From the IMG/VR virus record IMGVR_UViG_3300009678_000029, positions 1 to 42,544 of that record: 42,544 nt of DNA; one strand, given 5' to 3'. How positions within the stretch are numbered: the first letter of the stretch is position 1; each line of letters opens with the position of its first letter. The DNA is from a virus. Shown here one piece after another: positions 1 through 23,393 of this stretch. A model generated the notes under the pieces. That model was given only the letters and a program-made list of their open reading frames with translations, had not been told where the DNA came from and searched no databases. A program made the translations under genes and the position numbers.

Positions 1-123
1 CCCTTCGAGCCCTTCACATACGGGCACTTCCGGTAGGCGCGGTAGGACCGATCGCGCTCGTCGTACAGTCGGAACAGGTGGCGCAATGTCGGCATGTCCA
101 CCGTCTCGATGAACCACGCCATC
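1..123. repeat. Terminal direct repeat, copy 1 (identical to 42422-42544); indicates a circularly closed assembly of ~42,421 bp
   Basis: Bases 1-123 are identical to the last 123 bases of the window. Confidence 0.95.
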
Positions 124-284: not shown

Positions 285-718
285 GGAATTTCCTCATCGC
301 GGGAAATTCGCGGAGAAATTTCGGGCGCGCGCGAAGACGACCTGCAAGCGGTCTTCGAGGGGGGGGCCTGGAAGAAAACCGCATCTTCGTGCGCCTGCTT
401 GGCATTGCACGAGCGACAGAGCGACTCCCAGTTCGTGGGATCAAGCCGTCTGCTTGGCGCAATGCGGATGCTGATGATGTGGCCTACCGCTCGGGCCTTC
501 ACTTGCCCGCGTCCCTCGCGCATACACCGCGCGCAGTCAGGGTGCGCCTTCAGGAAGCCTGCGGTTGCGTGCTGCCAGTCCCTATCGTAACCACGCTGCG
601 CTGCGGTCCCTCGCTGCTGTACGTCACGCTGCGCTGCCTCCGTGGTGTGCTTAGGACAGTACTTCTCCCCCTTAGCCACGAGGGCAGGGCAACGTGGTGT
701 GAAACAGTGGTGTCTCAC
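272..718 (-). CDS. HNH endonuclease (packaging-associated type)
   Basis: 148-aa ORF with Cys pairs (CFTPRC, CPKH) and HNH core VGHIISI...NWESLCRSCNAKQ. It lies directly upstream of terS/terL, as in HK97-like cos phages. Confidence 0.85.
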   Translation of the reverse strand: MRHHCFTPRCPALVAKGEKYCPKHTTEAAQRDVQQRGTAAQRGYDRDWQHATAGFLKAHPDCARCMREGRGQVKARAVGHIISIRIAPSRRLDPTNWESLCRSCNAKQAHEDAVFFQAPPSKTACRSSSRAPEISPRISRDEEIPWAV

Positions 719-1051
719 CTATGGTCTCCGTACCGCACGGACCATGCGAGGACTGGAGGTGAGGACGTTCACGCCATCCCCAAACACCTCGTAGACCACT
801 GTCCCCACCAGTGCCAGGAGTTGGGTGCGGAGGTTATCTCCCTCAAGCACGCCGAAGTAGATGCCCGTGGTGCCGCGCTCAGCCAGCGCCACGCTCATGG
901 TGGCATGAATCGTGGCGCCCCCATCCGTGAGACTCAGACGCCCCGTGAGTCCAGCGAGGCCTGTCGCTGGCTCGAGCGCGCCGGTTGTGGCGTTCTTTCG
1001 CGTGGCCCGATACTCGAACTCCCAGTCGCTGTCGAGATAGATCGTCTTCAC
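719..1051 (-). CDS. Hypothetical protein (110 aa)
   Basis: ORF track. Its start overlaps the stop of the upstream gene (1048-1051) and its stop abuts the HNH start. No motif recognised. Confidence 0.6.
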   Translation of the reverse strand: MKTIYLDSDWEFEYRATRKNATTGALEPATGLAGLTGRLSLTDGGATIHATMSVALAERGTTGIYFGVLEGDNLRTQLLALVGTVVYEVFGDGVNVLTSSPRMVRAVRRP

Positions 1052-2037
1052 GTCGAGGCCTCCGCCAGGTCGAAGCGCGCACTCGATTCCTCTTCGACTT
1101 CCTGCTTCGCGCGCGACTCATCGTCCACGAGAAACCGCATGGTCGATTGCTCAAGCAGTCCGTAGCGCACGTCCGACTGATCGAGAACGAGGTAGCGCAG
1201 GCCGCTCTGGTCCATGACCTGCAACGGCAGGGGGATCGGCACCCCCCCATGCACGAACGTGACATCTTGGCCACTGATGATGTACGCCGCCGGCAGCGCC
1301 ACGAGGCGCCACGTCTTCCGCAATCCGGCGACGGTGCCCGTGAGGACGAAGACACCACCCGCAGCACTGATGCGCCGTGCGATGCGCAAGCCTGCGGCCG
1401 TGCCGGTGAGCGTGTACGCCGTCCCGGTGGCCACGAGGCGATGCGTCGCCCGCAGCCCTGCCGCCGTCCCCGTGATGGTGAACGCCGCCGATGCCGCACT
1501 CAGCCGCCGACCAAGCGTGAGGCTCGCGGCAGTGCCCGTGAGGACGAACGTCCCCGATGCCGCCGCGAGCGTGTACGTGCTGCCCGCCACATAGGTCAGC
1601 GTGACATCCGAGCCCGTGAGGACGTAGGTCGCACTGCCTGCACTGAGCCGGCGCCCGTACTTCAGGGCGGCTGCCGTGCCCGTGAGCACATAGGCAGCTG
1701 GGGCAGCGGTGAGCAGCCAGGTCTTCCTGAGCCCTGCCGCGGTGCCGGTGAGCACGAACGCCGCGCTCGCGGCTTGGATCTTCCTCCCGTACTCAAGGCT
1801 CGCCGCTTGCCCTGTCACCGCGTAGCTCGCGGATGCTGCAGTGATCTTACGCCCCAGCTTCAGCGCAGCGGCCGTGCCAGACATGGTGAAGGAGGCCGAC
1901 GCTGCGGTGAGGATGTAGGCAGCAGCTCCCCCTCCCGCGAATGCGAGCTCCTGATCGAAGACGCCTTGCGGGTTGATCTCCGGGTCGAAGATTCCCGCGC
2001 GCCCAACCTGTGGATCGAAGAAGCCGTAGCGCGCCAT
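1048..2037 (-). CDS. Tandem-repeat protein (about ten 22-aa units), putative fibre-like structural protein
   Basis: ORF 1048..2142; the ATG at 2037 overlaps the stop of the upstream gene (TGATG). Repeats follow A-x-A-x-[YF]-x-L-T-G-T-A-A-x-L-x-x-x-R-[RK]-[LI]-x-A, with N-terminal FDP repeats and C-terminal DQSxxRY repeats. Confidence 0.75.
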   Translation of the reverse strand: MARYGFFDPQVGRAGIFDPEINPQGVFDQELAFAGGGAAAYILTAASASFTMSGTAAALKLGRKITAASASYAVTGQAASLEYGRKIQAASAAFVLTGTAAGLRKTWLLTAAPAAYVLTGTAAALKYGRRLSAGSATYVLTGSDVTLTYVAGSTYTLAAASGTFVLTGTAASLTLGRRLSAASAAFTITGTAAGLRATHRLVATGTAYTLTGTAAGLRIARRISAAGGVFVLTGTVAGLRKTWRLVALPAAYIISGQDVTFVHGGVPIPLPLQVMDQSGLRYLVLDQSDVRYGLLEQSTMRFLVDDESRAKQEVEEESSARFDLAEAST

Positions 2038-2783
2038 CAGGTCATCCGCACGTTGGGCGGGACGTTCGAGCGGTTCTGGCGGTAGAACGGCTCCTCTTCC
2101 CCTGGCGGGGTCGTGTCCTCTTTGAGCGCCACGATGTGGCAAATCGTCGAGTGGTCCACGCTGATCGTGAACGTGGCCGCTACCGCGCCGGCCGACGCGA
2201 GTACGCGATCCTCCATCGCAAGAATCGCGTCCGGGTTGTGCCGCATCGTGTAGTTGGTGCCCGCAGCCACCGTCCCGGCCCCTGGCGTTCCCTCGGAGGT
2301 GTTCTGGTGGAACCCGACGAGCAGCTCGTTATTCTCGGCGGTCGTGATGTTCGTACTGGTCACCGCGTCCGCCCCCGTCCCCGGATTCCCAGGACCGTTG
2401 GGCCCTTGCTCATGCCCGAGCGAGGTGTCGAACGGCACAGCAGCCCCGCCGCGCCACGCGCCGGCGATGATACGCCGGAACTGCACCGCCGCCGAGAAGG
2501 TCACGGTAATGACGGGCGTCCCCGCCACCGTGACTTTACTCCGCCACGTCTGCCCCGCCTCCCCGTCGAAGTCCTCAATGATTTTGTCGCTGTTCACGCT
2601 GTAGCTGTTTCCGAGATTGTCATCGACGGTCGAAATGTTGTCCGTCCCGCCGTCGCCCCAGCCCGACATGCCGACGATCACATCGCCGACCTCGACCGCC
2701 ACGCCGAGTGTGATAGCCACCGTCCCGGCGGAGGCATCCGCTTGAAAGCTCGCGCCGCTGCTCGCGACGTAGACGTAACCCAT
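2037..2783 (-). CDS. Hypothetical protein (248 aa), beta-rich; possibly tail or fibre associated
   Basis: ORF track. Gly/Thr/Val-rich, coupled to flanking genes. Function not recognised. Confidence 0.7.
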   Translation of the reverse strand: MGYVYVASSGASFQADASAGTVAITLGVAVEVGDVIVGMSGWGDGGTDNISTVDDNLGNSYSVNSDKIIEDFDGEAGQTWRSKVTVAGTPVITVTFSAAVQFRRIIAGAWRGGAAVPFDTSLGHEQGPNGPGNPGTGADAVTSTNITTAENNELLVGFHQNTSEGTPGAGTVAAGTNYTMRHNPDAILAMEDRVLASAGAVAATFTISVDHSTICHIVALKEDTTPPGEEEPFYRQNRSNVPPNVRMT

Positions 2784-2784
2784 A

Positions 2785-3126
2785 CTAGGTCAACTCCATC
2801 ATGCCGCCCGCACAGGACCACGGCTGCGGACCGGCGACGGTGACGCGCACGAGGGCATTGACGAAGGGACGGCCCCAACCAGCGGTGAACTCCTCCCGTG
2901 TGCGCGGCTGCAGCGTCCGCTGGTTGATGCCCGGAACGCAGCCCGTTTCCCCGACGAGCTGCTTCCAGCTATTGCCGCTGTCCTGCGACACCTCCACGAG
3001 CAGCCGCATGGTGCCCACGAGGGACGCCATGTCGAGCCAGAGCGAGAGCTTCGTGAAGGGACCCGGCACGACGAAGGGGTCGAGCACCTGGGGCGTCGTG
3101 AAGGCGGGAATGGGATAGCTGGGCAT
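2785..3126 (-). CDS. Hypothetical protein (113 aa; alternative start at 3177)
   Basis: ORF 2785..3177. The internal ATG at 3126 is preceded by GGAG 7 nt upstream and avoids overlap with gene 3155..3424. Confidence 0.6.
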   Translation of the reverse strand: MPSYPIPAFTTPQVLDPFVVPGPFTKLSLWLDMASLVGTMRLLVEVSQDSGNSWKQLVGETGCVPGINQRTLQPRTREEFTAGWGRPFVNALVRVTVAGPQPWSCAGGMMELT

Positions 3127-3154
3127 CAGCAGCTCCAGTTGCCGGTCATGCCGC

Positions 3155-3424
3155 TCACACACCCACCACGTCGCCATCAGCGAACAGCACTTCGTCTACC
3201 GTAATGGGCGGATCGAGTGCGGCTGCCGCGTCTACGACTGCCTGGGCGATACGCTGGTGCCACTTCGGGTTGTGCGGGTCGATGGATGGCGCACTGGCGA
3301 ATGCGCTCACCGCGACGAAGGGCTGCCCCAGCCCGTTGGTGACCGATGCCGATGCCTGCAGTTCGTAGTCGCCGTTGGCCTGCTGTTGTAGACCGTAGAT
3401 GGATTCGACTAGCGCCTTGGACAT
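3155..3424 (-). CDS. Hypothetical protein (89 aa)
   Basis: ORF track; fits the minus-strand operon. Confidence 0.6.
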   Translation of the reverse strand: MSKALVESIYGLQQQANGDYELQASASVTNGLGQPFVAVSAFASAPSIDPHNPKWHQRIAQAVVDAAAALDPPITVDEVLFADGDVVGV

Positions 3425-3445
3425 ACGGTGGCCTTCCTCTCTGTT

Positions 3446-4711
3446 TTAAGCGTTCCAACTACCAGTCATTCCACTTTGAATGCGGAGGGCGCCGTTATCG
3501 CCGAACCACGTTGTCGTGCCCGTCGCCGTCGAGATTTCGAGCCACGCGTAGAAGTGGCGGCCGATGGTCGGCTGATGACTCAAGGTCGCATGGGCGATCT
3601 GCTGTGCCGCCACAGCGGCCGGGTTCGAGCTGGACCCAGTGATGCCGGTAAACGCGGTGGTGGAATCGAACCCGATCCCGACTTCGCGCGCCACCGTTGT
3701 GCTGGCGTTGGTGCTGGTGGCCATGAGATCGGCCATGAAGTTCTCGACCTGCAGCCCCACCATCACATCGACTTGGTAGTTGGCCGAGGCCTGCGCCTGC
3801 CGCCACGTCGCGAGCGTGTAGGCCCAGGTATTCGTGAGCGCCCGGAGGACGAACGGAAACTCGACCCGATTGTCGGCGTTCCAGAGGTCGAACTTGCAGG
3901 GGAGGTCCGAGCCGATGGTCACCCAGTGGAACGTCGTCGCCGAGCGCGGACGGCATGACCCGAGGTAGCGCCGCGTCGAGTCTCCGGACTTGACGAGCAC
4001 CCCGTCGAGCCGCACCAGGGCTGTCGCGCGCGTGGTGGCGTTCGTCCAGTTCAAGAACTCCAGCGTCACCACACCACCGGACAAGAAGCCGAAGATGTCG
4101 AACGGGAGGTCGGTCGTGCGTCCGGTCACCGCAAGGGAAATCTCCGCCGCTGGCGCGCAGTCCTGCCAGTTGTTTCCGTCGAACAGGCTGAGGTGATTGC
4201 CTTTGTGCTGGCAGAGGAAGATGTTCGACAGCGTGGTCGAGTCGGCCACCATCACCGGCGTCCCGGTCACCCCGGAAAGCCGGAAGTCATTGCGGGCGGG
4301 GTCCACGATCGGGCCACCCGAGGAGTAGACCGACCCGAGCGCCGTGTAGTGAAAGGCAACGCCCGTATCCGAGATCATCGCCGCCTCACCGGCGAGCAGC
4401 GTCACGGCGGGCATGAGCCGACGCGCGTTCGTCCCATCGTGCCGGAGCAGCTCCACCACGTTCGAGACGCTGGCGTGGACGTTGTTGATCTTGACGGCCT
4501 TGACGTTGCGAACCTTGCTGGCGGCGGGCGTGGCACAGACGTCGGTGGTGGCAGCTGTCACGATCGTCGTCGATTGCGTATCCGGCACCATGTTGCTCGT
4601 CGGGGTGATGGGGTCGTCGGTGTCGACGAAGTCCACCTCCACATCGATGTCCCCCGCCGCCGAGGTGACGAGCTGGAGCTTATCCGCTGGGCTGTTCTTG
4701 AGGTTCAGCAT
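3446..4711 (-). CDS. Hypothetical protein (421 aa), putative fibre or receptor-binding protein
   Basis: ORF track. Thr/Ser/Asn/Gly-rich, beta-type composition. Its ATG overlaps the stop of the upstream small gene. Function inferred only from composition and neighbours. Confidence 0.65.
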   Translation of the reverse strand: MLNLKNSPADKLQLVTSAAGDIDVEVDFVDTDDPITPTSNMVPDTQSTTIVTAATTDVCATPAASKVRNVKAVKINNVHASVSNVVELLRHDGTNARRLMPAVTLLAGEAAMISDTGVAFHYTALGSVYSSGGPIVDPARNDFRLSGVTGTPVMVADSTTLSNIFLCQHKGNHLSLFDGNNWQDCAPAAEISLAVTGRTTDLPFDIFGFLSGGVVTLEFLNWTNATTRATALVRLDGVLVKSGDSTRRYLGSCRPRSATTFHWVTIGSDLPCKFDLWNADNRVEFPFVLRALTNTWAYTLATWRQAQASANYQVDVMVGLQVENFMADLMATSTNASTTVAREVGIGFDSTTAFTGITGSSSNPAAVAAQQIAHATLSHQPTIGRHFYAWLEISTATGTTTWFGDNGALRIQSGMTGSWNA

Positions 4712-4917
4712 CAGCGCCGCGGCATGGCCTGGAACGTCTTCGCCAAGAGCGACCCCGGCTCACAGAACACCTTCCGGTGCCGCCGCCCGCACCGCCGGCA
4801 GGTCGCCACCTTCACATCCGGCTGGGGTTCCGTCACGTCGAGGTTCCGCACATCGGCGCAGCACTTCATGAGATCCGTGCGCTGCTTCAGATAGGCGAAG
4901 GGATGAGGTTGCCGCAT
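4711..4917 (-). CDS. Small Cys-rich protein (68 aa), zinc-ribbon-like
   Basis: The internal ATG at 4917 of ORF 4711..5046 overlaps the upstream stop (TAATG). Sequence MRQPHPFAYLKQRTDLMKCC...CRRCGRRHRKVFC. Confidence 0.55.
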   Translation of the reverse strand: MRQPHPFAYLKQRTDLMKCCADVRNLDVTEPQPDVKVATCRRCGRRHRKVFCEPGSLLAKTFQAMPRR

Positions 4918-5186
4918 TACTTCGCGGACTCTGCCGCGAGCGAGTGCGCTCCCATCCCGCGGGCCAGCGCCGCGATCTCCATGCTGATCGCGCGGAGGTT
5001 GCCCTTCTCCTCGATCGCCGCCGCACGTTGGCGCACCGCGCGCCATTTCTTCGTCGCGGCATCGACGGCTTTGTGGAGCTCGTCGGCCTCCTGCTCGAGC
5101 GGCGCGGTTTTCTTGAGGATCGCGTCCCGCTGCTTGACGAGCTCGTCGAAGCGCTTGGACAGCTCCGGATATTTGTCTCGGTTCAT
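4917..5186 (-). CDS. Coiled-coil protein (89 aa)
   Basis: The internal ATG at 5186 of ORF 4917..5285 follows the stop of gene 5198..5545. Charged heptad-like sequence MNRDKYPELSKRFDELVKQRDAILKK... Confidence 0.55.
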   Translation of the reverse strand: MNRDKYPELSKRFDELVKQRDAILKKTAPLEQEADELHKAVDAATKKWRAVRQRAAAIEEKGNLRAISMEIAALARGMGAHSLAAESAK

Positions 5187-5197
5187 AAAGTGCCCCG

Positions 5198-5545
5198 TTA
5201 CGCGAGGGTCAGGATGCTGGCGCCGAAATCGACCGTGAAGGTCTCTCCATCGAGCACTGTCACCGCGCTCCCGTAATCCCACCACAGGACGAGGGGATCC
5301 GCCGGTGAGGTCTGCGTGTCGTTGTAGAGCGGGATGTACTGCAGCGGCCCGAACGATCCACCCGACGCCGTCCAGACCACATCGACGCCCGTCAGCGTCG
5401 CCGTCCCCGTCGTCTCCGTCCAGCCGTTCTGTACGTCAGTACCCCCAGCAGGGTAGCCGTTCGCCGGCGTGATCTCGGCGAGGTCGGCCTTCACCGCATC
5501 GGCCGACGCGGACGGCACGGCGTTCGAGGCGTACACCTTGAGCAC
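5198..5545 (-). CDS. Hypothetical protein (115 aa from GTG 5545; the coding signal continues upstream, see findings)
   Basis: ORF track, GTG start. The 82 nt upstream are in-frame and show coding-like codon periodicity but have no start codon. Confidence 0.65.
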   Translation of the reverse strand: MLKVYASNAVPSASADAVKADLAEITPANGYPAGGTDVQNGWTETTGTATLTGVDVVWTASGGSFGPLQYIPLYNDTQTSPADPLVLWWDYGSAVTVLDGETFTVDFGASILTLA

Positions 5546-5627
5546 GTGCCCGGCAGCATCGAGGACATGCTTGCCGAGGCCGAGCTGCTCGACGAAATCC
5601 TGGAACTTGTTCGCGACGGCCGTATCG

Positions 5628-5846
5628 CTACCCGTCCTTTCGGATCAATCCGTCGAGGGCTTGGGCGACGACGATCTTTGGCCCGCCACCGTTCGCGGCG
5701 GCATCGTCGCGCTTGTTGGCGATGCGCTCGATCAGTCGCGTGGCTTCGGCGAGCGCACCGAGGATGAGCACCGTCTGATCGAGCGGTCCCTTGATCGCGA
5801 CGCGCCCCTGCTGGAGATCGTATTGGATGTGGAGCTCGAGAATCAT
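5628..5846 (-). CDS. Hypothetical protein (72 aa), first gene after late leader A
   Basis: ORF 5628..5867 (TTG); the ATG at 5846 is more plausible. It ends in GGG TAG next to the possible recoding site. Confidence 0.5.
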   Translation of the reverse strand: MILELHIQYDLQQGRVAIKGPLDQTVLILGALAEATRLIERIANKRDDAAANGGGPKIVVAQALDGLIRKDG

Positions 5847-5864
5847 CGCCTGATTTGCTCCGCG

Positions 5865-5910
5865 CAAAAAGAAACGAGGGGCCAGAGCGCTGACTGCGCT
5901 CCAGCCCCTC
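5865..5910 (-). terminator. Intrinsic terminator ending the early/int operon (also the hairpin of late leader A)
   Basis: Minus strand reads GAGGGGC-TG-GAGCGC-AGTCA-GCGCTC-TG-GCCCCTC, followed by GTTTCTTTTTG. Confidence 0.7.
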
Positions 5911-5966
5911 GCCGACCAGTGTGCCGACCTAGGGCCTCGTTTACTTCATGGCGTCGAATATAGCGA
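5904..5966 (-). promoter_or_regulatory. Late leader element, copy A: TCGCTATATTC box, AGGCCCTAGGTCG box, TCGGCGAGGGGC (5' arm of the hairpin)
   Basis: All three blocks recur in the same order and similar spacing at 23264-23324. TATATT is -10-like. Confidence 0.5.
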
Positions 5967-5978
5967 CTTTGCAGCGAC

Positions 5979-6206
5979 TTAGCCGAGCAGATCTCGGAGC
6001 CGGATGTCCACGATCACCTTGCAGCGAATGCAGCGGTAACTGAACAGGACCGTCTCCAACTCGTCATGGCTGAACCCGGCCTCGCGACGCCCGAGCAGGC
6101 TCGCCAGCACCGCCACGCCGGCGAGATGCCGATGCAACGGCACATGCGTGCGACCGGGGCAGCGACAACTGCGCTTGATCACGCGCGTCTCCGCGACGGC
6201 CGTCAC
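5979..6206 (-). CDS. Small zinc-ribbon-like protein (75 aa), last gene of the ATPase-nuclease cassette
   Basis: ORF track. CxC near the N-terminus (SCRCPG) and CxxC near the C-terminus (CIRCK). Start overlaps the stop of the nuclease gene. Confidence 0.55.
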   Translation of the reverse strand: MTAVAETRVIKRSCRCPGRTHVPLHRHLAGVAVLASLLGRREAGFSHDELETVLFSYRCIRCKVIVDIRLRDLLG

Positions 6207-6595
6207 CGCACCTCCAGTTGACGGGGCGTTGATGCGGTCCCGCTAGTCTCCGCGCCATGGACGGCGTGATCATCTTCGACCTGCCCGACTGGCCCGTGCA
6301 GATCGATCCAGTCCCGCAGCGACACGACGACGAGCGCATCCTGATCCAGGCACCGCGGCCGCTGCAGGATGACGACGCCGATCTTCGCCGGCGATCGCTC
6401 GGCCGCCTTCCGGCGGATCTTGTCGAGCCACTCGAGGACGTAGCCCGGGAACTGTGAGGCGCGGCTCTTCGCCTGGTAGCAGAACATGCCGTCCTCGAAG
6501 TCGGCCCCGTCCCGCTCGCCGGTGACGGGGATCCGCCGGGTCCCGAGTAGGACCGCCACGCGCCGCTCGAACGCCTTCCAGCGTGTGTCGCTCAC
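6203..6595 (-). CDS. Small PD-(D/E)XK-type nuclease, Hjc/resolvase-like (130 aa)
   Basis: Layout WKAFERRVAVLLG ... GADFEDG ... FCYQAKS ... GVVILQRP resembles the E...D...(E/Q)xK motif of archaeal-type Holliday junction resolvases. Start overlaps the ATPase stop. Confidence 0.55.
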   Translation of the reverse strand: MSDTRWKAFERRVAVLLGTRRIPVTGERDGADFEDGMFCYQAKSRASQFPGYVLEWLDKIRRKAAERSPAKIGVVILQRPRCLDQDALVVVSLRDWIDLHGPVGQVEDDHAVHGAETSGTASTPRQLEVR

Positions 6596-8340
6596 ACCGC
6601 ACCATCGAACAGCAGCTCGCTCGCTTTGACGCCGTCGCGATCGGCTTCGACGAGGCGCTTCGCGCCGAGCCGCTGCAGATACGTGTCCCGGCTCGAGCGC
6701 GCATAGCCTGTTATTTCACTGATGACGTCGCGGGCGACGGCTTTCGGGTAGTCCGCCACGACGATGTCGAGGATCTTCCGCTCGCCTTCGGGCAGCCGCC
6801 GGCGCCAATGCTCCAGGAGTTCGGCGCCGATCGGCAGCGGCTCGAAGTCCGGACCGAGCGCGGCGAGGCCTGCCGACGTTGCGAGCGCGCTCGTGCCGGC
6901 GACCTGGACCAGGCCCTTCTCGCTCAGGCGCTGCAGATACGTGTGGTGCGTCGACCGGCGGTAGCCGGTGAGGACGGTCAGCTGCTTGCGACTGCAGCCT
7001 TCCGGGTAATGCGCCACGGCGCGCAGGACGGCGGCTTCGCCCTTGGGGAGCGCGCCGTCAAAAACCTCCCGGGCGGGAGGGATCTGCCGAGCCGGGAGGG
7101 AAACGGTCGGCCTTTTTCCGGGGACCGGTTGGCGGACTGCAGCCGTCTGCACTGGCTTCGTGGCTCGGGCAATGGCGACGTCGATGCGCTCGAGCGCGTC
7201 CGTCAGGATCCTTCTGCCCTCCGTCATACGCTCCGCCACGCCACGCGCGTCCGCAAAGACCTGCTGAATCACGACGAGCGCCTGCTTGAGTCCGGTAAGG
7301 TGTTCCTCGGTCAGCATGGGTACGGCCACACGCTCGATCTTCGTCTCGACGCGCGGCTCGATCTTGACGGTGCCCTTCTTGGCGAGCTCGCGCTGCAAGC
7401 GACCGACCTGCTCGCGCAGCAGCTTCGGGTCCTCCGCCTTCGCCTTCTCGATCGTGGCCGCCATGTCAGTCCGGATCCGCTCGAGATCGATCGGCGCGAG
7501 CTCGCGGGCGACCGCCGCGGCGCCGACCTCCGGCGTGGCGGACGCGTTGAACGATCGCTTCTCGAGGATCCCGACGACCTCGGAGATCTCCAGCCACTCG
7601 GGGCTCCACACGTGCGGCCGCCCGGTCTTCAGCTTCGGCAGCTCGGCGCCGATGTCCTGGTCGGCGATCGCCTTGTCTTTGATCCACGACTCGATCGCCT
7701 TCCGCTCGTGGCTGCCGGTGGTGCGAAACACGAACAGCGTCTGCGCCAGATTGAGCGCCTTCTTGGAGACGTCCTGCGGCCGCTGGGTGATGAGCGACGT
7801 TCCAATGCCGAAGTTGCGGCCGATCTTCTGCATCCGGATGAACGCATGCTTCATGTGCTCCTCGCCGCGCTGCTCGTTCTCGGGGACGAATTCCTGGCAC
7901 TCCTCGAGGAACAGGTGCACGGCGCTCGGCGAGGCCTTCTTGCGAAAGAAGAACCGATCGGCGAAGCCGCGGGCGAAGCGCGCCTTGTCGGTGTCCGTCT
8001 CGAACTGCGAGACGTCCAGGATGGCCGAGATCGCGCGGTCGATGATGAGATCGGCGAGCAGCGCACCGCCCGTCGGCTCGAGCGGCACGTCGCCGTGCAG
8101 CCCGCCGAAGATCGGGATCGTGATGTCGCTCGGCCGCTTGCCGTCGCCGGCGAGGCGCAGGCCATACCACACGCCGACGGGATCCAGGACGATGAACTGC
8201 GCACCGGCGTCCCACATCAGCTCGGCGAGCTTCGAGGCGCCGTACGTCTTGCCGCTGCCCGTCGTGCCGATCCACGCGAGCTTCTGCGTCACGGCCTCGA
8301 CGGGCAGCGCGAGCTCGTCGGCGAGCTTGAGTTTCTTCAC
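6592..8340 (-). CDS. FtsK/HerA-superfamily P-loop ATPase (DUF87/HerA-like motifs) with coiled-coil linker and two C-terminal winged-helix repeats
   Basis: 582 aa. Walker A GTTGSGKT, FIVLDPVG, Walker B-like HLFLEECQEF, TSLITQRPQD. Two repeats of L-P-x-G-E...TGY-x-RS...TYLQRL...LV. The GTG start overlaps the int stop (GTGA). Confidence 0.8.
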   Translation of the reverse strand: MKKLKLADELALPVEAVTQKLAWIGTTGSGKTYGASKLAELMWDAGAQFIVLDPVGVWYGLRLAGDGKRPSDITIPIFGGLHGDVPLEPTGGALLADLIIDRAISAILDVSQFETDTDKARFARGFADRFFFRKKASPSAVHLFLEECQEFVPENEQRGEEHMKHAFIRMQKIGRNFGIGTSLITQRPQDVSKKALNLAQTLFVFRTTGSHERKAIESWIKDKAIADQDIGAELPKLKTGRPHVWSPEWLEISEVVGILEKRSFNASATPEVGAAAVARELAPIDLERIRTDMAATIEKAKAEDPKLLREQVGRLQRELAKKGTVKIEPRVETKIERVAVPMLTEEHLTGLKQALVVIQQVFADARGVAERMTEGRRILTDALERIDVAIARATKPVQTAAVRQPVPGKRPTVSLPARQIPPAREVFDGALPKGEAAVLRAVAHYPEGCSRKQLTVLTGYRRSTHHTYLQRLSEKGLVQVAGTSALATSAGLAALGPDFEPLPIGAELLEHWRRRLPEGERKILDIVVADYPKAVARDVISEITGYARSSRDTYLQRLGAKRLVEADRDGVKASELLFDGAV

Positions 8341-9554
8341 GGCTGTCCCCCCGAATGTCCCCCACTCTTCGGTGGGTTTTCGCCGGTTTCGATGGGTTCC
8401 TTCGGGTTCAGTCCGGCTTTAGCTTTCGGGGCCGTGCTCGGGCGGGCTTGACTACGGATCAAGAGGCTGGGAGTTCGAGTCTTCCTGGGCGCACTTGCAC
8501 TTACGAGGTCGTCGACCGCGGCTGTCCCCCGTGTTGTCCCCCATGATTGGAGCACGTGCGTGAGCCGGGTCTCGCACTCGTCGTAGATCCGCTCCGTCTC
8601 CTGCCAGCCGTAGTCGAGTTTCCCGCGCGCGTGCCCAAGCAAGGCCTCACGCCAGAGGAACGAGATCCCCGCCAGGTCGCACCAGAGCGCGAACGAATCG
8701 CGGCCGTCCTTCGGCCGAACGCCCACGCCGGCGCCGCGCAGCGCGCGCTGGAATTGCTGGAGCGTGCCGACGGGCTCGGGGATTGCTCCCAGAAGTGGGA
8801 CGATACGATCGCGCGCGTCGGCTTTCGTGCCCCTGATGTGTAGCCGGCCGTCCTCGATGGCCCACTTGTTGGCGAAGTACTCGTCGGGCAACATGCCCGA
8901 GCAGCAGAGCGCCCACCACATCGCGCCGACGTCGCCGCCGAGCGTCTCACGGATCGCCGCCGCTTCGTCGGGCCGCTGCGGATTTTTCGCGCGCTTCACC
9001 GGTTCGGGCAGCGGCTCGAGCGTGGCGAGCTCGGTGGCTAGTGCATGCTCGTTCGTGATCGTGTCGCGGAGGAAGGCACGCAGGTAGGCGATCGCGCGAT
9101 TGAACATAGCGCCCTGCTTCAGGCTATCACAGGCGGCGCGATAGAGAACGCAGGCCTGCCGGAGCTCGGCGAGCGTCGCGGGCGTGCTGGTGCGCTCGAG
9201 ACCCGCGCGCGCCCAGGCCGCGAACTTCCGATACGCGAGACTCGGCTTCTTGAGCCGCCAGGCCTCGAACGTCTCGCCGAACGGGAGCGCGTGCTCTGGT
9301 GTTGGGAGCCGTTGCCACGCGCCGGCGCGATAGACCGTCCAGACCTGGCGCAAGCTGATGCGGCCGGCGCGCACCGCGCGCAGCAGTTCGTCGGCGCGGC
9401 CCGACTCGAACAGGACGCGCAGCATTTCCTTGAGCCGCGGCACCATCGCGGGATCCGCGAAGCCGCTGGCCCGCTCGATCTGGCCAACGCCGCGGAATCC
9501 GATGCGGACGATCGGCGTGCCCCGCCCGTGCGACTTCCGAATCATTGGCGTCAC
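8337..9554 (-). CDS. int: Tyrosine integrase (divergent), with a C-terminal tail encoded by the attP region
   Basis: 405 aa. HIRGTKADARDRIVPL (Lys hairpin), DGRDSFALW (box II Arg), LLGHA, downstream Tyr (KLDYGW or ERIYDE). Preceded by an excisionase-like gene; attP lies inside its 3' end. Confidence 0.8.
   Translation of the reverse strand: MTPMIRKSHGRGTPIVRIGFRGVGQIERASGFADPAMVPRLKEMLRVLFESGRADELLRAVRAGRISLRQVWTVYRAGAWQRLPTPEHALPFGETFEAWRLKKPSLAYRKFAAWARAGLERTSTPATLAELRQACVLYRAACDSLKQGAMFNRAIAYLRAFLRDTITNEHALATELATLEPLPEPVKRAKNPQRPDEAAAIRETLGGDVGAMWWALCCSGMLPDEYFANKWAIEDGRLHIRGTKADARDRIVPLLGAIPEPVGTLQQFQRALRGAGVGVRPKDGRDSFALWCDLAGISFLWREALLGHARGKLDYGWQETERIYDECETRLTHVLQSWGTTRGTAAVDDLVSASAPRKTRTPSLLIRSQARPSTAPKAKAGLNPKEPIETGENPPKSGGHSGGQP
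8344..8363 (+). repeat. Candidate integrase arm-type sites (P arm): TGTCCCCC x2, 12-nt phasing
   Basis: TGTCCCCC at 8344-8351 and 8356-8363. The same pair with the same spacing recurs at 8523-8542 on the other side of the core. Confidence 0.55.
8447..8493 (+). other. attP core: 3' half of a tRNA-Arg(ACG) (anticodon arm, variable loop, T arm, 3' acceptor strand, discriminator A)
   Basis: CTTGA-CTACGGA-TCAAG (U33, anticodon ACG), AGGCT, GGGAG-TTCGAGT-CTTCC (T54 T55 C56 A58, G53:C61), TGGGCGC-A. There is no matching 5' acceptor or D arm upstream, so this is a fragment. Confidence 0.8.
8523..8542 (+). repeat. Candidate integrase arm-type sites (P' arm): TGTCCCCC x2, 12-nt phasing
   Basis: TGTCCCCC at 8523-8530 and 8535-8542; both pairs are preceded by GGC. 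Confidence 0.55.
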
Positions 9555-10005: not shown

Positions 10006-10286
10006 AACCGCGCCTTGTAGCCACTCGGCGTGAGCCGCGTCTCAACGAGCCGCTGGACCTGGCCCAGGCGCCCCAGTTCGGACATGCGCCGGGCGACCGC
10101 GATCGGATCCAAACCGCAGACGTCTGCAATCTCGACGTAGGTCCGCGCGATCCCGTCCGCGAGTGCAGCGAGGATCTTCGCGCGGTGTGCAGCCGCGCCG
10201 TCGATCATGCCGTTGGCAGCTTCGACGGACGTCTCCGGATCGACGCGCCGGACGCCGGGCAGCAGGGCGAGCTGCTCGTCGCTCAT
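9990..10286 (-). CDS. Winged-helix (MarR/ArsR-like) DNA-binding protein (98 aa)
   Basis: ATG at 10286 overlaps the upstream stop. AHRAKILAALADGIARTYVEIADVCGLDPIAVARRMSELGRLGQV. Confidence 0.6.
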   Translation of the reverse strand: MSDEQLALLPGVRRVDPETSVEAANGMIDGAAAHRAKILAALADGIARTYVEIADVCGLDPIAVARRMSELGRLGQVQRLVETRLTPSGYKARLWRAS

Positions 10287-10561
10287 CGCCGGTGCTCGTC
10301 TGCGTGAACGCACGTGGCGAAATGGCTCTGATACAGCCGCTCGTCCTTCGCGGGCTCCGCCGTGAACGTCGCCAGGATGTCCTTGCCGGGGCGCAGGTCG
10401 TCGTCGTTGAATCCCATCTGCGCCTCATCGAGCACCGTCTCGTCAATGCGAAAGCCCCGCGCCGCTGGCCACGGCTCGGCGTCGACGGGCATCCGCTTCC
10501 CGTTCGTGGTGATCGTCCAGATGATCGGATCGCCGCAGGAGCGGCAGCGCGAGAGCTTCAC
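10283..10561 (-). CDS. Zinc-ribbon protein (92 aa)
   Basis: CRSCGDPIIW...GKRMPVD...HFATC motif; coupled starts and stops. Confidence 0.6.
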   Translation of the reverse strand: MKLSRCRSCGDPIIWTITTNGKRMPVDAEPWPAARGFRIDETVLDEAQMGFNDDDLRPGKDILATFTAEPAKDERLYQSHFATCVHADEHRR

Positions 10562-11138: not shown

Positions 11139-11701
11139 GCGTCCGCCTGGATGGGCGGCGGCGCCGCCGACGGCCGCTGATCGCGGACCTTGTGCTCGTA
11201 CCGCCCGCCGCCCGTGCCCGGGGCCGCGCCCATCGTGAAGGCGACTCCCGCCTTCCAGTGCAGCGCCGCGTTGTGCAGGATCAGCAGCCGGTAGATTTGA
11301 TTCCCCTCGCGGGTGATGGCGACGAGATGCTCCCCCATCCGCGCGTCGCAGACGGGGCACGGCGTCCACCGGCCCGTGGCGGGATCCTGCCAGGCGTTCT
11401 TCTCCCAGTCGTCGTACTGTCCCTGCAATCCGCTCGCCGGCCCCGACCCACGGGCGATGCCCTTGCCCAGCGCGAGCAGCTCGCCCGGCTTCGGGAACCA
11501 GCGGCCGGCGCTCTTGAGATAGGCGTCGACGGCCCCGGTGAACTGCGCGGTCGTGAGCTCGCCGCAGATCTGCGCGTAATCGGTGGCGAACTCCAGCACT
11601 TCGGGCGGCGCGTGCGCCGGCCGGTTGTAGACTCGGAGTAGGCGATCGAGTTGCGCCATCACATCGGAGCGGTTCAGCGGCAGCGACAGGGGCATGGTCA
11701 C
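11135..11701 (-). CDS. Hypothetical protein (188 aa), replication-module context
   Basis: ORF track. Start overlaps the stop of the putative replication organiser. No NTPase motif. Confidence 0.6.
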   Translation of the reverse strand: MTMPLSLPLNRSDVMAQLDRLLRVYNRPAHAPPEVLEFATDYAQICGELTTAQFTGAVDAYLKSAGRWFPKPGELLALGKGIARGSGPASGLQGQYDDWEKNAWQDPATGRWTPCPVCDARMGEHLVAITREGNQIYRLLILHNAALHWKAGVAFTMGAAPGTGGGRYEHKVRDQRPSAAPPPIQADA

Positions 11702-12594
11702 CGTGCGGCCTCTTCCTCACGCCGACGCTCGGCCTCAGCCGCGAGCCGCATCTTCTCGTAATCGCGCAGCGGTCCCGGTTGCCCGGCGGCTTGCTGCTTC
11801 GCCCACGCCTCGCGCACGGGCGCCTCGAAGTACCTCAGCGTGTGCGGCTGGCGGTTCAGCGGCGTCGCGCGGAACTCTTTCGCGCGCTCGCGCAGCACCT
11901 TCTCGGCCAGTTCGACGGGGATGCCAGCCGACTCCCACGCCAGGGCAACGTCGCCATCCTCGCCGGCGTGGAGCGCGTGGTAGGCGCCGGCGAGGCGTTC
12001 GCTGAGGACCTGGTTCACAGCGATCACGCAGCGCGTCGCGTAGCCCATAGCTGCTGCTGTTGTAGTAGGACTGGACTGCACTGCACTGGACAGCACAGCA
12101 CTGCCCTGCACAGCCAACGCTGGACCGGGCGCGGAAATTCCGCGCTCTTTCCTTATACTTGTCCGTGGACGCGTCCGCGTCCCTTTGGACCGTGCCAACC
12201 TTTTGCGCTTGCGGTCCTTAGCGAGCTTGAGCACGCTACCGCCCGTCCATTCGAGCCAGTCGTGGATGAGCAGCCGGCCGTCCGGACGGCGGTCGATATG
12301 CCCCGACGCTACGAGCAGCTCGCGCGCATCCTTGCGCGCCCATTCGGTGCCGTGGAGCCACTGCAGCAGCGACTTCCGGATGGACGCCTGATGCGCCGCG
12401 GTCACGTCCCCGTCCGGGTGATGTTCCGCGGCCCAGGCCCAGAACTCGTCGAGCACCGAGATCGCGATCGCCAGCCAGGCGACGTCGTCCCGCCCCGGGA
12501 AGAGATCCCCGGCGCCCTGACTGAGGAGCTCGGCCAGCACGTAGGTCTTTCGGTTGCTCGAGCGCTGTGTGTCGACTTGGATCCACAGGCTCAC
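11698..12594 (-). CDS. Putative replication initiator/organiser (298 aa) with an internal low-complexity linker carrying iteron-like repeats
   Basis: ORF 11698..12732. GTG at 12594 is preceded by GGAGG 5 nt upstream. Two domains are joined by the linker KRKRLARSKG...AVQGSAVLSSAVQSS. Function inferred from position and the lambda O-like layout. Confidence 0.5.
   Translation of the reverse strand: MSLWIQVDTQRSSNRKTYVLAELLSQGAGDLFPGRDDVAWLAIAISVLDEFWAWAAEHHPDGDVTAAHQASIRKSLLQWLHGTEWARKDARELLVASGHIDRRPDGRLLIHDWLEWTGGSVLKLAKDRKRKRLARSKGTRTRPRTSIRKERGISAPGPALAVQGSAVLSSAVQSSPTTTAAAMGYATRCVIAVNQVLSERLAGAYHALHAGEDGDVALAWESAGIPVELAEKVLRERAKEFRATPLNRQPHTLRYFEAPVREAWAKQQAAGQPGPLRDYEKMRLAAEAERRREEEAAR
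12070..12114. repeat. Three tandem 15-bp iteron-like repeats (ACTGGACTGCACTGC / ACTGGACAGCACAGC / ACTGCCCTGCACAGC)
   Basis: Read directly. Followed by palindromes GCGGAAATTCCGC (12131-12143) and GGACGCGTCC (12167-12176) and a lower-GC patch. Confidence 0.5.
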
Positions 12595-12646
12595 CGCTTC
12601 CTCCGGCGCCGGCGCACGTCGTCCTGGCGAGACCACGAGCGACCGT

Positions 12647-12811
12647 TCACTGGCGTTCCGTGCACTTCGTGCAGACCTGCCGGCCGGTGGCCAACAGGAT
12701 GGGATCCCAGGCGCAGCCCCCCGGGCAGGCACGGTCCTCGGTGCATCCGCACTTCGCGCACCGCGGCCAGGGCTTCGGCTTCGCGCGGCGCTTTGGCTTG
12801 GGGCGGCTCAC
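12647..12811 (-). CDS. Small basic Cys-rich protein (54 aa), absent from the ORF track
   Basis: GTG at 12811 overlaps the ParB-like stop (GTGA). High GC3. VSRPKPKRRAKPKPWPRCAKCGCTEDRACPGGCAWDPILLATGRQVCTKCTERQ. Confidence 0.45.
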   Translation of the reverse strand: MSRPKPKRRAKPKPWPRCAKCGCTEDRACPGGCAWDPILLATGRQVCTKCTERQ

Positions 12812-23210: not shown

Positions 23211-23228
23211 CGGCCTCCCAGGAATGCG

Positions 23229-23324: not shown

Positions 23325-23393
23325 ATCGAATTAACCCCGGCGCGCTGCTTCCCCGAGTAGCGCCTGGCGCGGCGCCGCCATAGTGTCTATCCC

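What the first reader, a model, noticed from the sequence alone, without database searches (positions are those of the whole stretch)
5979..8340. Integrase-coupled three-gene cassette: FtsK/HerA-type ATPase with twin wHTH tail, small PD-(D/E)XK nuclease and zinc-ribbon protein
Seen: the 582-aa ORF has Walker A GTTGSGKT at residues 25-32, FIVLDPVG, HLFLEECQEF and TSLITQRPQD, the HerA/DUF87-like motif set, but no N-terminal barrel domain. A coiled-coil linker follows. Then come two ~65-aa repeats (LPKGEAAVLRAV..TGYRRSTHHTYLQRLSEKGLV and LPEGERKILDIV..TGYARSSRDTYLQRLGAKRLV) that look like winged helices, giving a motor-plus-sequence-reader layout like FtsK-gamma or TraB. Its GTG overlaps the int stop (GTGA). 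Its stop overlaps a 130-aa ORF with an E..D..QxK layout like Hjc-type nucleases. A 75-aa CxC/CxxC ORF follows, and the unit ends at a strong terminator. Inference: the cassette belongs to no recognisable head, tail, lysis or replication module. After integration at the adjacent attP it would sit at the very end of the prophage, cut off from the early promoter. That is where temperate phages usually carry defence or exclusion cargo. Alternative readings are a motor-plus-resolvase pair (RuvAB/RuvC-like logic) for branched DNA, or a site-specific DNA translocase.
Basis: partly seen in the sequence, partly recalled or inferred. Interest (0 to 1): 0.75.

Follow-up and report, generated by a model that had tools for sequence, protein, structure and literature searches.

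The report
Phage HerA-type DNA motor beside attP
The three genes are real, but they are not a conserved defence cassette: the large one belongs to a very large, unstudied family of phage DNA-pumping ATPases with two DNA-reading heads, and here it sits next to an ordinary junction-cutting nuclease and an orphan zinc protein, just across the phage attachment site from the integrase.

Summary
All ORFs, motifs, GTGA overlaps, the twin wHTH repeat and the terminator are present at the stated coordinates.

The window is a complete circular temperate siphophage of 42,421 bp. I located attP between the integrase catalytic domain and the ATPase start. Positions 8446-8493 are 100% identical to the 3' 48 nt of a soil-bacterial tRNA-Arg(ACG) gene, and four arm-type 8-mers flank it.

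The "cassette/defence cargo" reading is not supported.
- The ATPase belongs to a stand-alone phage family with at least 5,279 clusters at 50% identity.
- The family has constant architecture: a barrel-less HerA/FtsK-type motor, a linker and two MarR/IclR-like wHTH domains.
- It occurs in phages of many phyla, at the distal end of the early DNA-metabolism region and always upstream of the terminase.
- The nuclease travels with it in only 2 of 74 related loci. The Zn-ribbon travels with it in none.
- PADLOC and NCBIfam give only partial motor-core hits.
- The 130-aa protein falls in PHROG Holliday-junction-resolvase families.

Best reading: a site-recruited ring dsDNA translocase for late-stage processing of phage DNA, expressed from the early operon only after excision. 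Its function is untested.

The parts
8337..9554 (-). Tyrosine integrase ORF (405 aa). The homology-supported catalytic part ends near nt 8535. The last ~60 codons read through attP, so the GTGA overlap with the ATPase start arises from that read-through.
   Evidence: phrog_1 integrase E=5e-7. 30-33% identical to the int-like genes of L082 and L085 over residues 7-330 only. An iterative HMM recruits 28 int-like ORFs, 12 of which Pfam calls Phage_integrase.
8446..8493 (+). attP core: 48 nt identical to the 3' end (anticodon arm, T arm and acceptor strand) of a bacterial tRNA-Arg(ACG) gene.
   Evidence: Rfam tRNA hit at 8434-8493, 26.1 bits, E=0.002, D arm missing. 100% identity over 48-51 nt to tRNA-Arg(ACG) genes in most of the 34 soil metagenome loci returned (98% in four), which lie in an Ala-Gly-Met-Val-Arg-Pro-Arg tRNA cluster. 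This is the only T-arm-like motif in the whole genome.
8523..8542 (-). Pair of GGGGGACA 8-mers (12-bp period) on the int side of the core. Likely Int arm-type sites.
   Evidence: GGGGGACA occurs 6 times in the genome against 1.6 expected, always on the minus strand, with 4 copies within 200 bp around the core (D9, 92, 93). L082 has the same layout with a different 8-mer, and L085 has different flanking repeats although its ATPase wHTH domains are nearly identical. The repeats therefore track Int rather than the ATPase (inference).
8344..8363 (-). Second pair of GGGGGACA 8-mers, on the ATPase side of the core, ending 4 nt before the ATPase GTG.
7501..8340 (-). ATPase residues 1-280: a minimal HerA/FtsK-clade P-loop motor. 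Walker A at 25-32, Walker B/catalytic EE at 146-147, GRN at 174-176, QRP at 186-188. No HAS barrel and no membrane segment.
   Evidence: Pfam DUF87, AAA_10 and TrwB_AAD_bind. PDB profile hits to HerA chains, E 1e-11 to 1e-6. Foldseek hits HerA 4d2i/8xau at E about 1e-12 and the STIV2 B204 packaging NTPase at target TM 0.74. Invariant residues listed. Maximum Kyte-Doolittle 19-residue window is 1.49.
7051..7500 (-). ATPase residues 281-430: a conserved FNASATPEVG segment and helix 286-321, then a variable helical linker (345-394) and a disordered Pro/Arg-rich stretch.
   Evidence: AF2 secondary structure and pLDDT; alignment A1.
6595..7050 (-). ATPase residues 431-582: two tandem MarR/IclR-like winged-helix domains (431-500 and 516-578), with TGY(K/R)RS.R.TYLQRL recognition helices.
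   Evidence: Pfam HTH_IclR 8e-7, MarR_2 8e-6, Penicillinase_R. PDB HosA (MarR family) 8e-4. DNA-level repeat D3. The module also occurs as a separate gene (L087, L088) and is not alignable in L082, although its motor is 79% identical.
6203..6595 (-). 130-aa putative Holliday-junction resolvase-type nuclease. Core of about 100 aa; invariant E10, R11, R21-I-P-V, G26, R28, D32, K43.
   Evidence: 246 homologues, no Pfam match. Alignment. 29 of 35 members hit phrog_244 'RusA-like HJ resolvase' (best 1e-9) and 5 hit phrog_2002 'HJ resolvase'. AF2 pLDDT 83 with alpha-beta-beta-beta-alpha-beta order. No significant match to solved structures.
5979..6206 (-). 75-aa CxC...CxxC ORF, an orphan with no homologue in any related locus.
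   Evidence: GC3 0.83. No family hit apart from a weak Zn_ribbon_CSL match, E=0.011. phmmer finds nothing in 84 loci. L085 and L082 carry unrelated small ORFs at the equivalent position. Present in 3 other contigs of the same phage.
5873..5913 (-). Intrinsic terminator closing the early transcription unit. Structural-type genes follow it.
   Evidence: 18-bp stem with 12 G-C pairs plus a T run. ORFs just downstream are homologous to L082 genes that lie between TerL and portal and in its head module.

Best explanation
The three ORFs are the last genes of the phage's early (DNA-metabolism) transcription unit. They lie immediately across attP from int and are three independent genes, not a system.

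The 582-aa protein belongs to a very large, uncharacterised, stand-alone phage family. It is soluble and consists of a minimal HerA/FtsK-clade P-loop motor, a flexible helical/disordered linker, and two MarR/IclR-type wHTH heads.

Inferred mechanism:
- The motor assembles into a ring, as HerA, FtsK and B204 do.
- The tethered wHTH pairs recruit or orient it on particular phage DNA.
- It then translocates dsDNA to process replicated and recombining phage DNA (branches, multimers, bound proteins) late in the early phase, before terminase acts.

The neighbouring 130-aa protein is a phage Holliday-junction-resolvase-type nuclease that fits the same stage, but it is only a local neighbour. The 75-aa Zn protein is an orphan.

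Because attP (tRNA-Arg 3' end plus arm-type repeats) lies between int and the ATPase, these genes are joined to the early operon only in the excised circular genome. In the prophage they sit at the far end.

Shown: domain architecture, family size and spread, lack of conserved partners, genomic position, and the attP location. Inferred: ring formation, translocation, the DNA-processing role, and excision-gated expression.
For: Architecture.

Family size and constancy:
- 1,186 or more homologues at 50-60% identity over the full length.
- 5,279 representatives of 50%-identity clusters at E<=1e-30, and the top 150 are all 550-630 aa and match end to end.
- Hosts span Acidobacteriota, Gemmatimonadota, Verrucomicrobiota, Myxococcota, Chloroflexota and Actinomycetota; locus GC ranges from 0.35 to 0.70.

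Context:
- The window has its own canonical HNH/TerS/TerL/portal/MCP set, so the ATPase is not the packaging enzyme.
- In relatives the gene lies among early genes: ParB-like, DUF5131, methylases, HNH, DnaB_C, RusA, exonucleases.
- TerL, where detected (15 of 74 loci), is always downstream on the same strand, 0.6-7.8 kb away.
- No neighbour family is shared by more than about a fifth of loci.

Mosaicism: ATPase is 86% identical in L085, against Int 30% and nuclease 54%. In L082 the motor is 79% identical but the wHTH tail is replaced. The wHTH module also occurs as a separate gene. Together these suggest a swappable DNA-specificity head.

Nuclease: PHROG HJ-resolvase families.

attP.

Early/late boundary at the terminator.
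Against: - No experiment exists on any family member. Only one GenBank phage record, from an uncultured phage, has a homologue.
- No DNA target of the wHTH heads was found. There is no skewed or clustered 8-mer other than the att-flanking repeats, and those track Int.
- Ring formation and translocation are extrapolated from fold relatives.
- The window lineage places the gene at a prophage end, a classic cargo position.
- The recurrent direct adjacency to int (9 of 74 loci) or to a ParB-like gene (7 of 74) could mean a lysogeny or segregation role rather than a lytic one.
- The nuclease fold has no significant match to any solved resolvase.
Confidence: 0.5

Rival explanations
1. Defence or superinfection-exclusion cargo. 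The trio, or the ATPase alone, is expressed from the prophage end in lysogens and blocks incoming phage DNA, for example by pumping or cutting it.
For: After integration at attP (8446-8493) the trio lies at the prophage end opposite int, separated from the early promoter and closed by a strong terminator. The closest solved relatives of the motor include the HerA subunits of the SIR2-HerA and DUF4297-HerA anti-phage systems. PADLOC HerA models hit the motor core.
Against: - The PADLOC and NCBIfam hits cover only about 100 residues: 35 bits against a cut-off of 800 for HerA_antiphage.
- The HAS barrel and the Sir2/DUF4297/NurA-type partner are absent.
- The trio is not conserved as a unit.
- The ATPase is highly conserved across thousands of phages, most with no integrase within 10 kb (50 of 74 loci), and sits inside early operons upstream of TerL.
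- No promoter-like site was found upstream of the gene.
- A low-GC, opposite-strand island at 23.2-24.4 kb looks like the more typical moron.
Confidence: 0.15
2. Accessory to site-specific recombination or genome segregation, following FtsK/XerCD or ParB logic. The motor acts at or near att/dif-like sites, or on ParB-bound DNA, to drive excision, integration, multimer resolution or segregation of phage genomes.
For: A tyrosine recombinase is directly adjacent on the same strand in 9 of 74 loci. In three loci (window, L043, L044) the ORFs overlap by 4 nt. int-attP-ATPase is conserved in the window, L085 and L082 despite different tRNA targets and only 30% Int identity. L069 reads ATPase-int-tRNA-Lys. 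A ParB-like gene is directly upstream in 7 loci and beside the split form in L087, with no ParA seen. B. cereus-group temperate phages likewise carry an FtsK-family gene near int, proposed to aid lysogenic recombination but never tested (PMC3335513).
Against: 50 of 74 loci have no integrase and 58 of 74 have no ParB-like gene within 10 kb. Both modules commonly sit at the end of early operons, so adjacency may be positional. The att-flanking repeats co-vary with Int, not with the wHTH heads. There is no FtsK_gamma or FtsK_SpoIIIE signature.
Confidence: 0.15
3. Replication protein: an origin-binding initiator or helicase, with twin winged helices as in iteron-binding Rep proteins fused to a ring NTPase.
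For: The window phage has no recognisable replicative helicase among its early ORFs. ATPase plus C-terminal winged helix is a common initiator layout (general knowledge).
Against: The window already has a rep-initiator-like ORF with internal 15-bp iterons. L085 (86% identical ATPase) and other loci also encode DnaB_C helicases. The gene lies at the distal end of the early region, not with the replication genes. HerA/FtsK-clade motors are dsDNA translocases rather than fork helicases (general knowledge).
Confidence: 0.07

Closest known systems
HerA (archaeal/bacterial HerA-NurA; HerA of the SIR2-HerA and DUF4297-HerA anti-phage systems)
   Same: Best sequence-profile and fold matches. Shares Walker A, a Walker B with EE, and the (S/T)QRP motif.
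   Different: No N-terminal HAS barrel. No conserved nuclease or Sir2 partner. Carries a long linker and two wHTH domains that HerA lacks. Scores far below the NCBIfam HerA cut-offs.
FtsK/SpoIIIE and Streptomyces TraB (motor plus C-terminal wHTH that reads 8-bp DNA motifs)
   Same: Same overall logic: an FtsK-HerA-superfamily motor followed by winged-helix DNA readers. Weak local resemblance of the recognition helix, GY(K/N)R..R..I(Q/E).(L/M).
   Different: No FtsK_SpoIIIE or FtsK_gamma Pfam match. hhalign probability 0.6% against E. coli FtsK gamma. No membrane anchor. Two wHTH domains of MarR/IclR type. No KOPS/TRS-like motif found.
A32-like/B204/P9 genome-packaging ATPases of membrane-containing viruses
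   Same: The minimal, barrel-less FtsK-HerA ATPase domain superposes on STIV2 B204 (target TM 0.74).
   Different: This phage packages DNA with a canonical TerS/TerL/portal set and has an HK97-type capsid. B204 has no wHTH tail.
FtsK-family genes of Bacillus cereus-group temperate phages (e.g. phIS3501 p50)
   Same: A phage-encoded FtsK-HerA-superfamily ATPase located next to the integrase in the circular genome, with function unknown (PMC3335513).
   Different: No detectable sequence match in GenBank phages. Different clade and architecture.
Archaeal Hjc and phage Holliday-junction resolvases (for the 130-aa protein)
   Same: Size, E...D...QxK spacing, alpha-beta-beta-beta-alpha-beta order, and position near the end of the early region. 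Hits PHROG HJ-resolvase families.
   Different: No significant profile or fold match to solved Hjc, RusA or T7 endonuclease I. Q replaces the acidic residue of the (D/E)xK motif.

Membership tests
HerA (canonical, incl. anti-phage HerA) | HerA-type P-loop core (Walker A, Walker B EE, SQRP-type motif) | tested here: met
   Pfam DUF87/AAA_10; PDB HerA profile hits at 1e-11; Foldseek E about 1e-12; invariant K31, E146, E147, Q186, R187, P188.
HerA (canonical, incl. anti-phage HerA) | N-terminal HAS-barrel domain | tested here: not met
   Walker A lies at residues 25-32, and the AF2 model begins with the ATPase fold. HerA profiles align only from their position ~400 onward.
HerA (canonical, incl. 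anti-phage HerA) | Full-length match above the curated cut-off | tested here: not met
   NCBIfam HerA_antiphage 35 bits against 800; helicase_HerA 29 bits against 970.
HerA-partner systems (NurA, SIR2, DUF4297) | Conserved adjacent effector gene | tested here: not met
   No PADLOC hit for the 130-aa or 75-aa proteins. No neighbour is conserved across 74 loci.
FtsK/SpoIIIE/TraB | FtsK_SpoIIIE motor domain | tested here: not met
   No such Pfam hit at E<=0.1.
FtsK/SpoIIIE/TraB | FtsK-gamma-type wHTH | tested here: not met
   No FtsK_gamma Pfam hit; hhalign probability 0.6%. The wHTH domains match IclR/MarR instead.
FtsK/SpoIIIE/TraB | N-terminal membrane anchor | tested here: not met
   Maximum hydropathy 1.49 over 19 residues, in a buried ATPase segment.
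FtsK/SpoIIIE/TraB | Polar or clustered 8-bp recognition motifs on the substrate DNA | tested here: inconclusive
   The only clustered 8-mer (GGGGGACA) flanks attP and co-varies with Int. No other skewed 8-mer stands out. All genes share one strand, which confounds skew.
Ring (hexameric) dsDNA translocase | Oligomeric ring, DNA-stimulated ATPase, translocation | not testable with these tools
   Inferred only from fold relatives.
Virus packaging ATPase (A32/B204/P9) | Sole packaging enzyme of a virus with a jelly-roll capsid and internal membrane | tested here: not met
   TerL (phrog_9, 3.5e-84), portal, HK97-type MCP and TerS Terminase_4 are present.
PD-(D/E)XK Holliday-junction resolvase (Hjc-like) - 130-aa protein | Catalytic E ... 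D ... (D/E/Q)xK on an alpha-beta-beta-beta-alpha-beta core | tested here: met
   E10, D32 and K43 are invariant and Q41 is at least 90% conserved. The AF2 secondary-structure order fits.
PD-(D/E)XK Holliday-junction resolvase (Hjc-like) - 130-aa protein | Significant sequence or fold similarity to a characterised resolvase | tested here: inconclusive
   PHROG families annotated as HJ resolvase are hit (1e-9). There is no PDB profile hit, no Foldseek PDB hit and hhalign against Hjc 1HH1 gives 0.2%. BFVD hits are uncharacterised phage proteins.
Known anti-phage defence system (PADLOC-DB) | All components match system models and co-occur | tested here: not met
   Only partial HerA motor hits; the other two proteins give no hit. 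The trio is not conserved.
tRNA-targeting tyrosine-integrase attP | Core identical to the 3' part of a host tRNA gene, flanked by repeated arm-type sites next to int | tested here: met
   Analogous tRNA-like fragments lie between int and the ATPase in L085 and L082.

The most novel reading that the evidence does not exclude
The 582-aa protein is the founding example of a very large, wholly uncharacterised family of phage-encoded, soluble HerA/FtsK-type ring translocases (at least 5,000 clusters at 50% identity, across many soil bacterial phyla). The family carries an exchangeable twin-wHTH 'reader'. It would be a phage counterpart of FtsK/TraB that loads at specific phage DNA sites to resolve, segregate or clear replicated genomes before packaging. 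In this lineage attP splits the gene from the early operon, so that it is made only after prophage excision.
Probability: 0.3. Interest if true: 0.7.

Novelty: new variant of a known kind. Interest (0 to 1): 0.45.

Why it matters
Tailed phages are thought to need no FtsK/HerA-type pump, because terminase does the packaging. A highly conserved, stand-alone motor-plus-reader protein present in thousands of soil phages would therefore point to an unrecognised step in phage DNA handling between replication and packaging, or to a new kind of lysogeny or segregation helper.

It also gives a clean, testable case of gene expression gated by excision, because attP interrupts the operon. Practically, the result removes a false candidate from the list of defence systems. 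It also supplies a firm attP/attB pair (tRNA-Arg(ACG)) for this uncultured phage.

Tried and rejected
- **Terminase reading.** phrog_2666 'terminase large subunit' hits the motor. Rejected because the phage has a canonical TerL, TerS and portal.
- **Known defence system.** PADLOC and NCBIfam give only partial core hits.
- **Conserved trio.** HMM searches of 84 loci found the nuclease in one other lineage only and the Zn-ribbon nowhere.
- **Nuclease fold assignment.** PDB profile search, Foldseek against PDB, Foldseek against BFVD and hhalign against Hjc 1HH1 all gave nothing significant.
- **FtsK-gamma homology of the wHTH.** Not significant.
- **KOPS/TRS-like target motifs.** Tandem repeats, dispersed repeats and 8-mer counts showed nothing beyond the att-flanking GGGGGACA pairs, which I assign to Int.
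- **attP in the terminator gap 5868-5978.** No tRNA-like signal there. The real core is at 8446-8493.
- **Integrated copy of this phage.** The viral-contig scan found nothing. The metagenome scan found empty attB sites and one att scar (L111) without the ATPase. All other contigs with the identical ATPase are in phage form.
- **Literature.** Searches found no description of this family.


Full report
**1. What is in the sequence**

The window is a complete circular phage contig. Its first and last 123 bp are identical, giving a true length of 42,421 bp.

Essentially all genes lie on the minus strand. The gene content is as follows.
- Packaging and head-tail set: HNH (272-718), TerS of the Terminase_4 type (42232-42543), TerL (40704-42272; phrog_9, 3.5e-84), portal, HK97-type major capsid protein, adaptor, tape measure and tail proteins.
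- Early region: a RecE-like exonuclease, a PolB-exo-like protein, a ParB_N protein and a replication-initiator-like ORF carrying internal 15-bp repeats.

The finding's ORFs are all present: int 8337-9554, the 582-aa ATPase 6592-8340, the 130-aa ORF 6203-6595 and the 75-aa ORF 5979-6206. All three cassette ORFs show coding-type GC3 of 0.83-0.89.

The two wHTH repeats can even be seen as a DNA repeat of 71% identity, 258 nt apart. An 18-bp-stem intrinsic terminator follows at 5913-5873.

**2. The ATPase**

Pfam sees DUF87 (HerA central domain), AAA_10 and TrwB_AAD_bind in residues 10-221. It sees IclR/MarR/Penicillinase_R winged helices at 435-480 and 519-572.

A profile of 36 homologues hits only HerA chains in the PDB (1e-11 to 1e-6), plus the MarR-family protein HosA for the tail.

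The AlphaFold model (pLDDT 85) begins directly with the P-loop fold and has no HAS barrel. It continues with helices 286-321 and 345-394 and a disordered stretch at 398-425, and ends in two wHTH domains.

Foldseek returns HerA from Sulfolobus and from the SIR2-HerA, DUF4297-HerA and NurA-HerA complexes at E about 1e-12. It also returns the minimal packaging NTPase B204 of STIV2, which the motor covers almost entirely (target TM 0.74).

There is no membrane segment, no FtsK_SpoIIIE or FtsK_gamma signature, and only a 0.6% hhalign probability against E. coli FtsK-gamma. The protein is therefore a barrel-less, soluble member of the HerA branch of the FtsK-HerA superfamily, with a tandem MarR/IclR-like reader. 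It is not an FtsK or TraB family member.

**3. How widespread the ATPase is and where it sits**

The word-indexed search returned 1,186 or more homologues, full length at 50-60% identity, many on contigs of 40-45 kb. The exhaustive HMM search of 1.84 billion cluster representatives found 5,279 at E<=1e-30 and 8,899 at E<=1e-10. The best 150 are all 550-630 aa and match end to end.

Only one GenBank phage record has a homologue: an uncultured podovirus whose gene is annotated 'hera helicase'. No PHROG, NCBIfam or Pfam model covers the whole protein.

Loci come from viral contigs and from MAGs of Acidobacteriota, Gemmatimonadota, Verrucomicrobiota, Myxococcota, Chloroflexota and Acidimicrobiia. 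Their GC content ranges from 0.35 to 0.70.

In 74 non-redundant loci no neighbouring gene family is shared by more than about a fifth. The large neighbours break down as follows.
- Upstream: ParB (8-9 loci), DUF5131, integrase (4), HNH, DnaB_C, methylases, Mu Gam.
- Downstream: integrase (8), TerL of the GpA or Terminase_6N type, DUF5131, sigma factors, portal.

Wherever a TerL was detected (15 loci), it lies downstream on the same strand, 0.6-7.8 kb away (median 4.2 kb), and never upstream. Gene tables for individual contigs show the same picture: the ATPase is the big gene at the distal end of the early DNA-metabolism region, ahead of the packaging genes.

The twin-wHTH module also exists as a separate gene.
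- In L087 it follows a 348-aa DUF87 ATPase and lies next to ParB.
- In L088 it follows a DUF3799 nuclease.

In L082 the motor is 79% identical to the window's, but the tail is not alignable. The heads therefore behave as an exchangeable specificity module.

**4. The two small genes**

The 130-aa protein has 246 homologues, mostly about 100 aa long, and no Pfam match. E10, R11, the R21-I-P-V segment, G26, R28, D32 and K43 are invariant, and Q41 is nearly so. Twenty-nine of 35 members hit phrog_244 ('RusA-like Holliday junction resolvase', best 1e-9), and five hit phrog_2002 ('Holliday junction resolvase').

The predicted secondary structure follows the alpha-beta-beta-beta-alpha-beta order of PD-(D/E)XK enzymes. 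However, no solved structure matches significantly, by profile, by Foldseek or by hhalign against Hjc 1HH1. BFVD matches are uncharacterised phage proteins. I therefore call it a probable phage junction-resolving nuclease. This is an ordinary gene for this part of a phage genome; relatives carry RusA there instead.

The 75-aa CxC...CxxC ORF has no homologue in any related locus and no family assignment.

**5. Is the trio a unit?**

It is not. An HMM of the nuclease family finds it in only one other ATPase lineage among the 84 fetched loci, L006 (the same phage as L082). There the order is nuclease, 66-aa ORF, int, 78-aa ORF, ATPase.

The contig with an 86% identical ATPase (L085) does keep int-ATPase-nuclease. 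Even there, Int is only 30% identical, the nuclease 54%, and the following small ORF is unrelated to the Zn-ribbon protein.

PADLOC gives only partial HerA motor hits and nothing for the partners.

**6.

A repeat pair noticed at the int/ATPase junction (D9) led to GGGGGACA. This 8-mer occurs six times in the genome against 1.6 expected, always on the minus strand. Four copies form two tandem pairs at 8523-8542 and 8344-8363.

Between the pairs, Rfam's tRNA model matches 8434-8493 on the plus strand (26.1 bits, E=0.002, D arm missing). A metagenome scan with the T-arm/acceptor part returned 34 loci. In most of them positions 8446-8493 are 100% identical (98% in four) to the 3' 48-51 nt of a tRNA-Arg(ACG) gene. 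That gene lies in a conserved Ala-Gly-Met-Val-Arg-Pro-Arg tRNA cluster.

This is a textbook tRNA-targeting attP. It lies inside the 3' tail of the int ORF, whose homology to other integrases stops at residue ~330, and directly upstream of the ATPase start codon. The int/ATPase GTGA overlap is thus a consequence of the int frame running through attP.

L085 and L082 also have a tRNA-like fragment between int and the ATPase, with their own flanking repeats. Those repeats differ between the window and L085, although the wHTH heads are nearly identical and Int is only 30% identical. I therefore assign them to Int (arm-type sites) and not to the ATPase; this is an inference.

After integration the prophage would read, in the direction of transcription: attR, ATPase, nuclease, Zn ORF, terminator, late genes, early genes, xis, int, attL.

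In the circular genome the trio forms the tail of the early operon. The ORFs just past the terminator are homologous to genes that lie between TerL and portal, and in the head module, of L082. That supports the terminator as the early/late boundary.

**7. Interpretation**

The prophage-end position fits a cargo reading. The family-level evidence fits a conserved function in the lytic programme better.
- The family has thousands of members with constant architecture and strong conservation.
- It is 44-50% identical between phages of hosts with 35% and 67% GC.
- It has a fixed place in early operons upstream of the terminase.
- It occurs in 50 of 74 loci with no integrase within 10 kb.

I therefore favour a site-recruited ring dsDNA translocase that processes replicated or recombining phage DNA before packaging (confidence 0.5). 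In this lineage it would be transcribed from the early promoter only once excision has rejoined the operon across attP.

Two recurrent direct neighbours keep a lysogeny or segregation role alive (confidence 0.15).
- A tyrosine recombinase is adjacent in 9 of 74 loci, three of them with overlapping ORFs. L069 shows ATPase-int-tRNA-Lys.
- A ParB-like gene without ParA is adjacent in 7 of 74 loci.

A similarly unexplained FtsK-family gene next to int is known in B. cereus-group temperate phages (PMC3335513). Defence cargo (0.15) and a replication role (0.07) are less likely, for the reasons given under the rival explanations.

**8. Novelty and score**

What is new is this combination: a barrel-less HerA-branch motor, a long linker and two MarR/IclR-type heads, soluble and without a conserved partner. 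It also forms a very large phage-specific family on which I found no experimental work or description.

I rate it a new variant of a known kind. Interest is 0.45. The specific claim of a three-gene, integrase-coupled defence cassette does not hold, but the ATPase family itself deserves study.

Noticed in passing
window 1-123 and 42422-42544: A 123-bp identical terminal repeat shows that the window is a circularly closed assembly of a complete 42,421-bp phage genome.
   Followed up: yes
window 8337-8535 (int ORF tail): The last ~60 codons of the int ORF are encoded by attP (core plus arm repeats). Integration would therefore replace the Int C-terminus. From memory, this resembles myxophage Mx8, where attP lies inside intP.
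   Followed up: partly
window 12070-12114: Three tandem 15-bp repeats (ACTGGACTGCACAGC) lie inside the replication-initiator-like ORF 11698-12732. They are candidate iterons or an origin within the initiator gene, as in lambda O.
   Followed up: no
window 23200-24400: A low-GC island (0.62 against about 0.67) holds the only plausible plus-strand ORFs. ORF 23394-23708 has a signal peptide, and ORF 23642-24214 has an internal lipobox-like signal sequence (LIIALALITAC, about 20 residues after the listed ATG). This looks like a typical moron or lysogenic-conversion island. There are no Pfam hits.
   Followed up: partly
window 1048-2142: A 364-aa ORF contains 66-nt (22-aa) internal repeats (LTGTAAGL-type). 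It lies in a block of unannotated ORFs (700-5867) between the early-operon terminator and HNH/TerS/TerL. Two ORFs of this block (5628-5867 and 719-1051) are homologous to genes that lie between TerL and portal, and in the head module, of L082.
   Followed up: partly
window 10283-10561: A 92-aa CxxC protein is 92% identical between the window and L085. It is the most conserved gene between the two phages, with the ATPase (86%) next.
   Followed up: no
L111 751-902: A soil metagenome contig carries arm-type repeats plus the 48-nt core (80% identical to window 8344-8495). They sit between a host transporter-like gene and tRNA-Pro, with no ATPase and no intact tRNA-Arg(ACG). This is an att scar or the junction of a different element using the same site.
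   Followed up: partly
L087 4926-6603; L088 1851-2669: Split and stand-alone forms of the family exist. L087 has a 348-aa DUF87 ATPase gene followed by a 200-aa twin-wHTH gene beside ParB. L088 has a 272-aa twin-wHTH protein after a DUF3799 nuclease, with no ATPase nearby.
   Followed up: partly
L069 1072-4535: A Gemmatimonadota MAG contig shows ATPase, then integrase, then tRNA-Lys (convergent). This is a prophage end with the ATPase on the int side, the mirror of the window's layout.
   Followed up: partly
L076 and L079 (same 11-Mb Chloroflexia chromosome): Two different copies of the ATPase family lie 1.8 Mb apart in one bacterial chromosome, presumably in two prophages.
   Followed up: no
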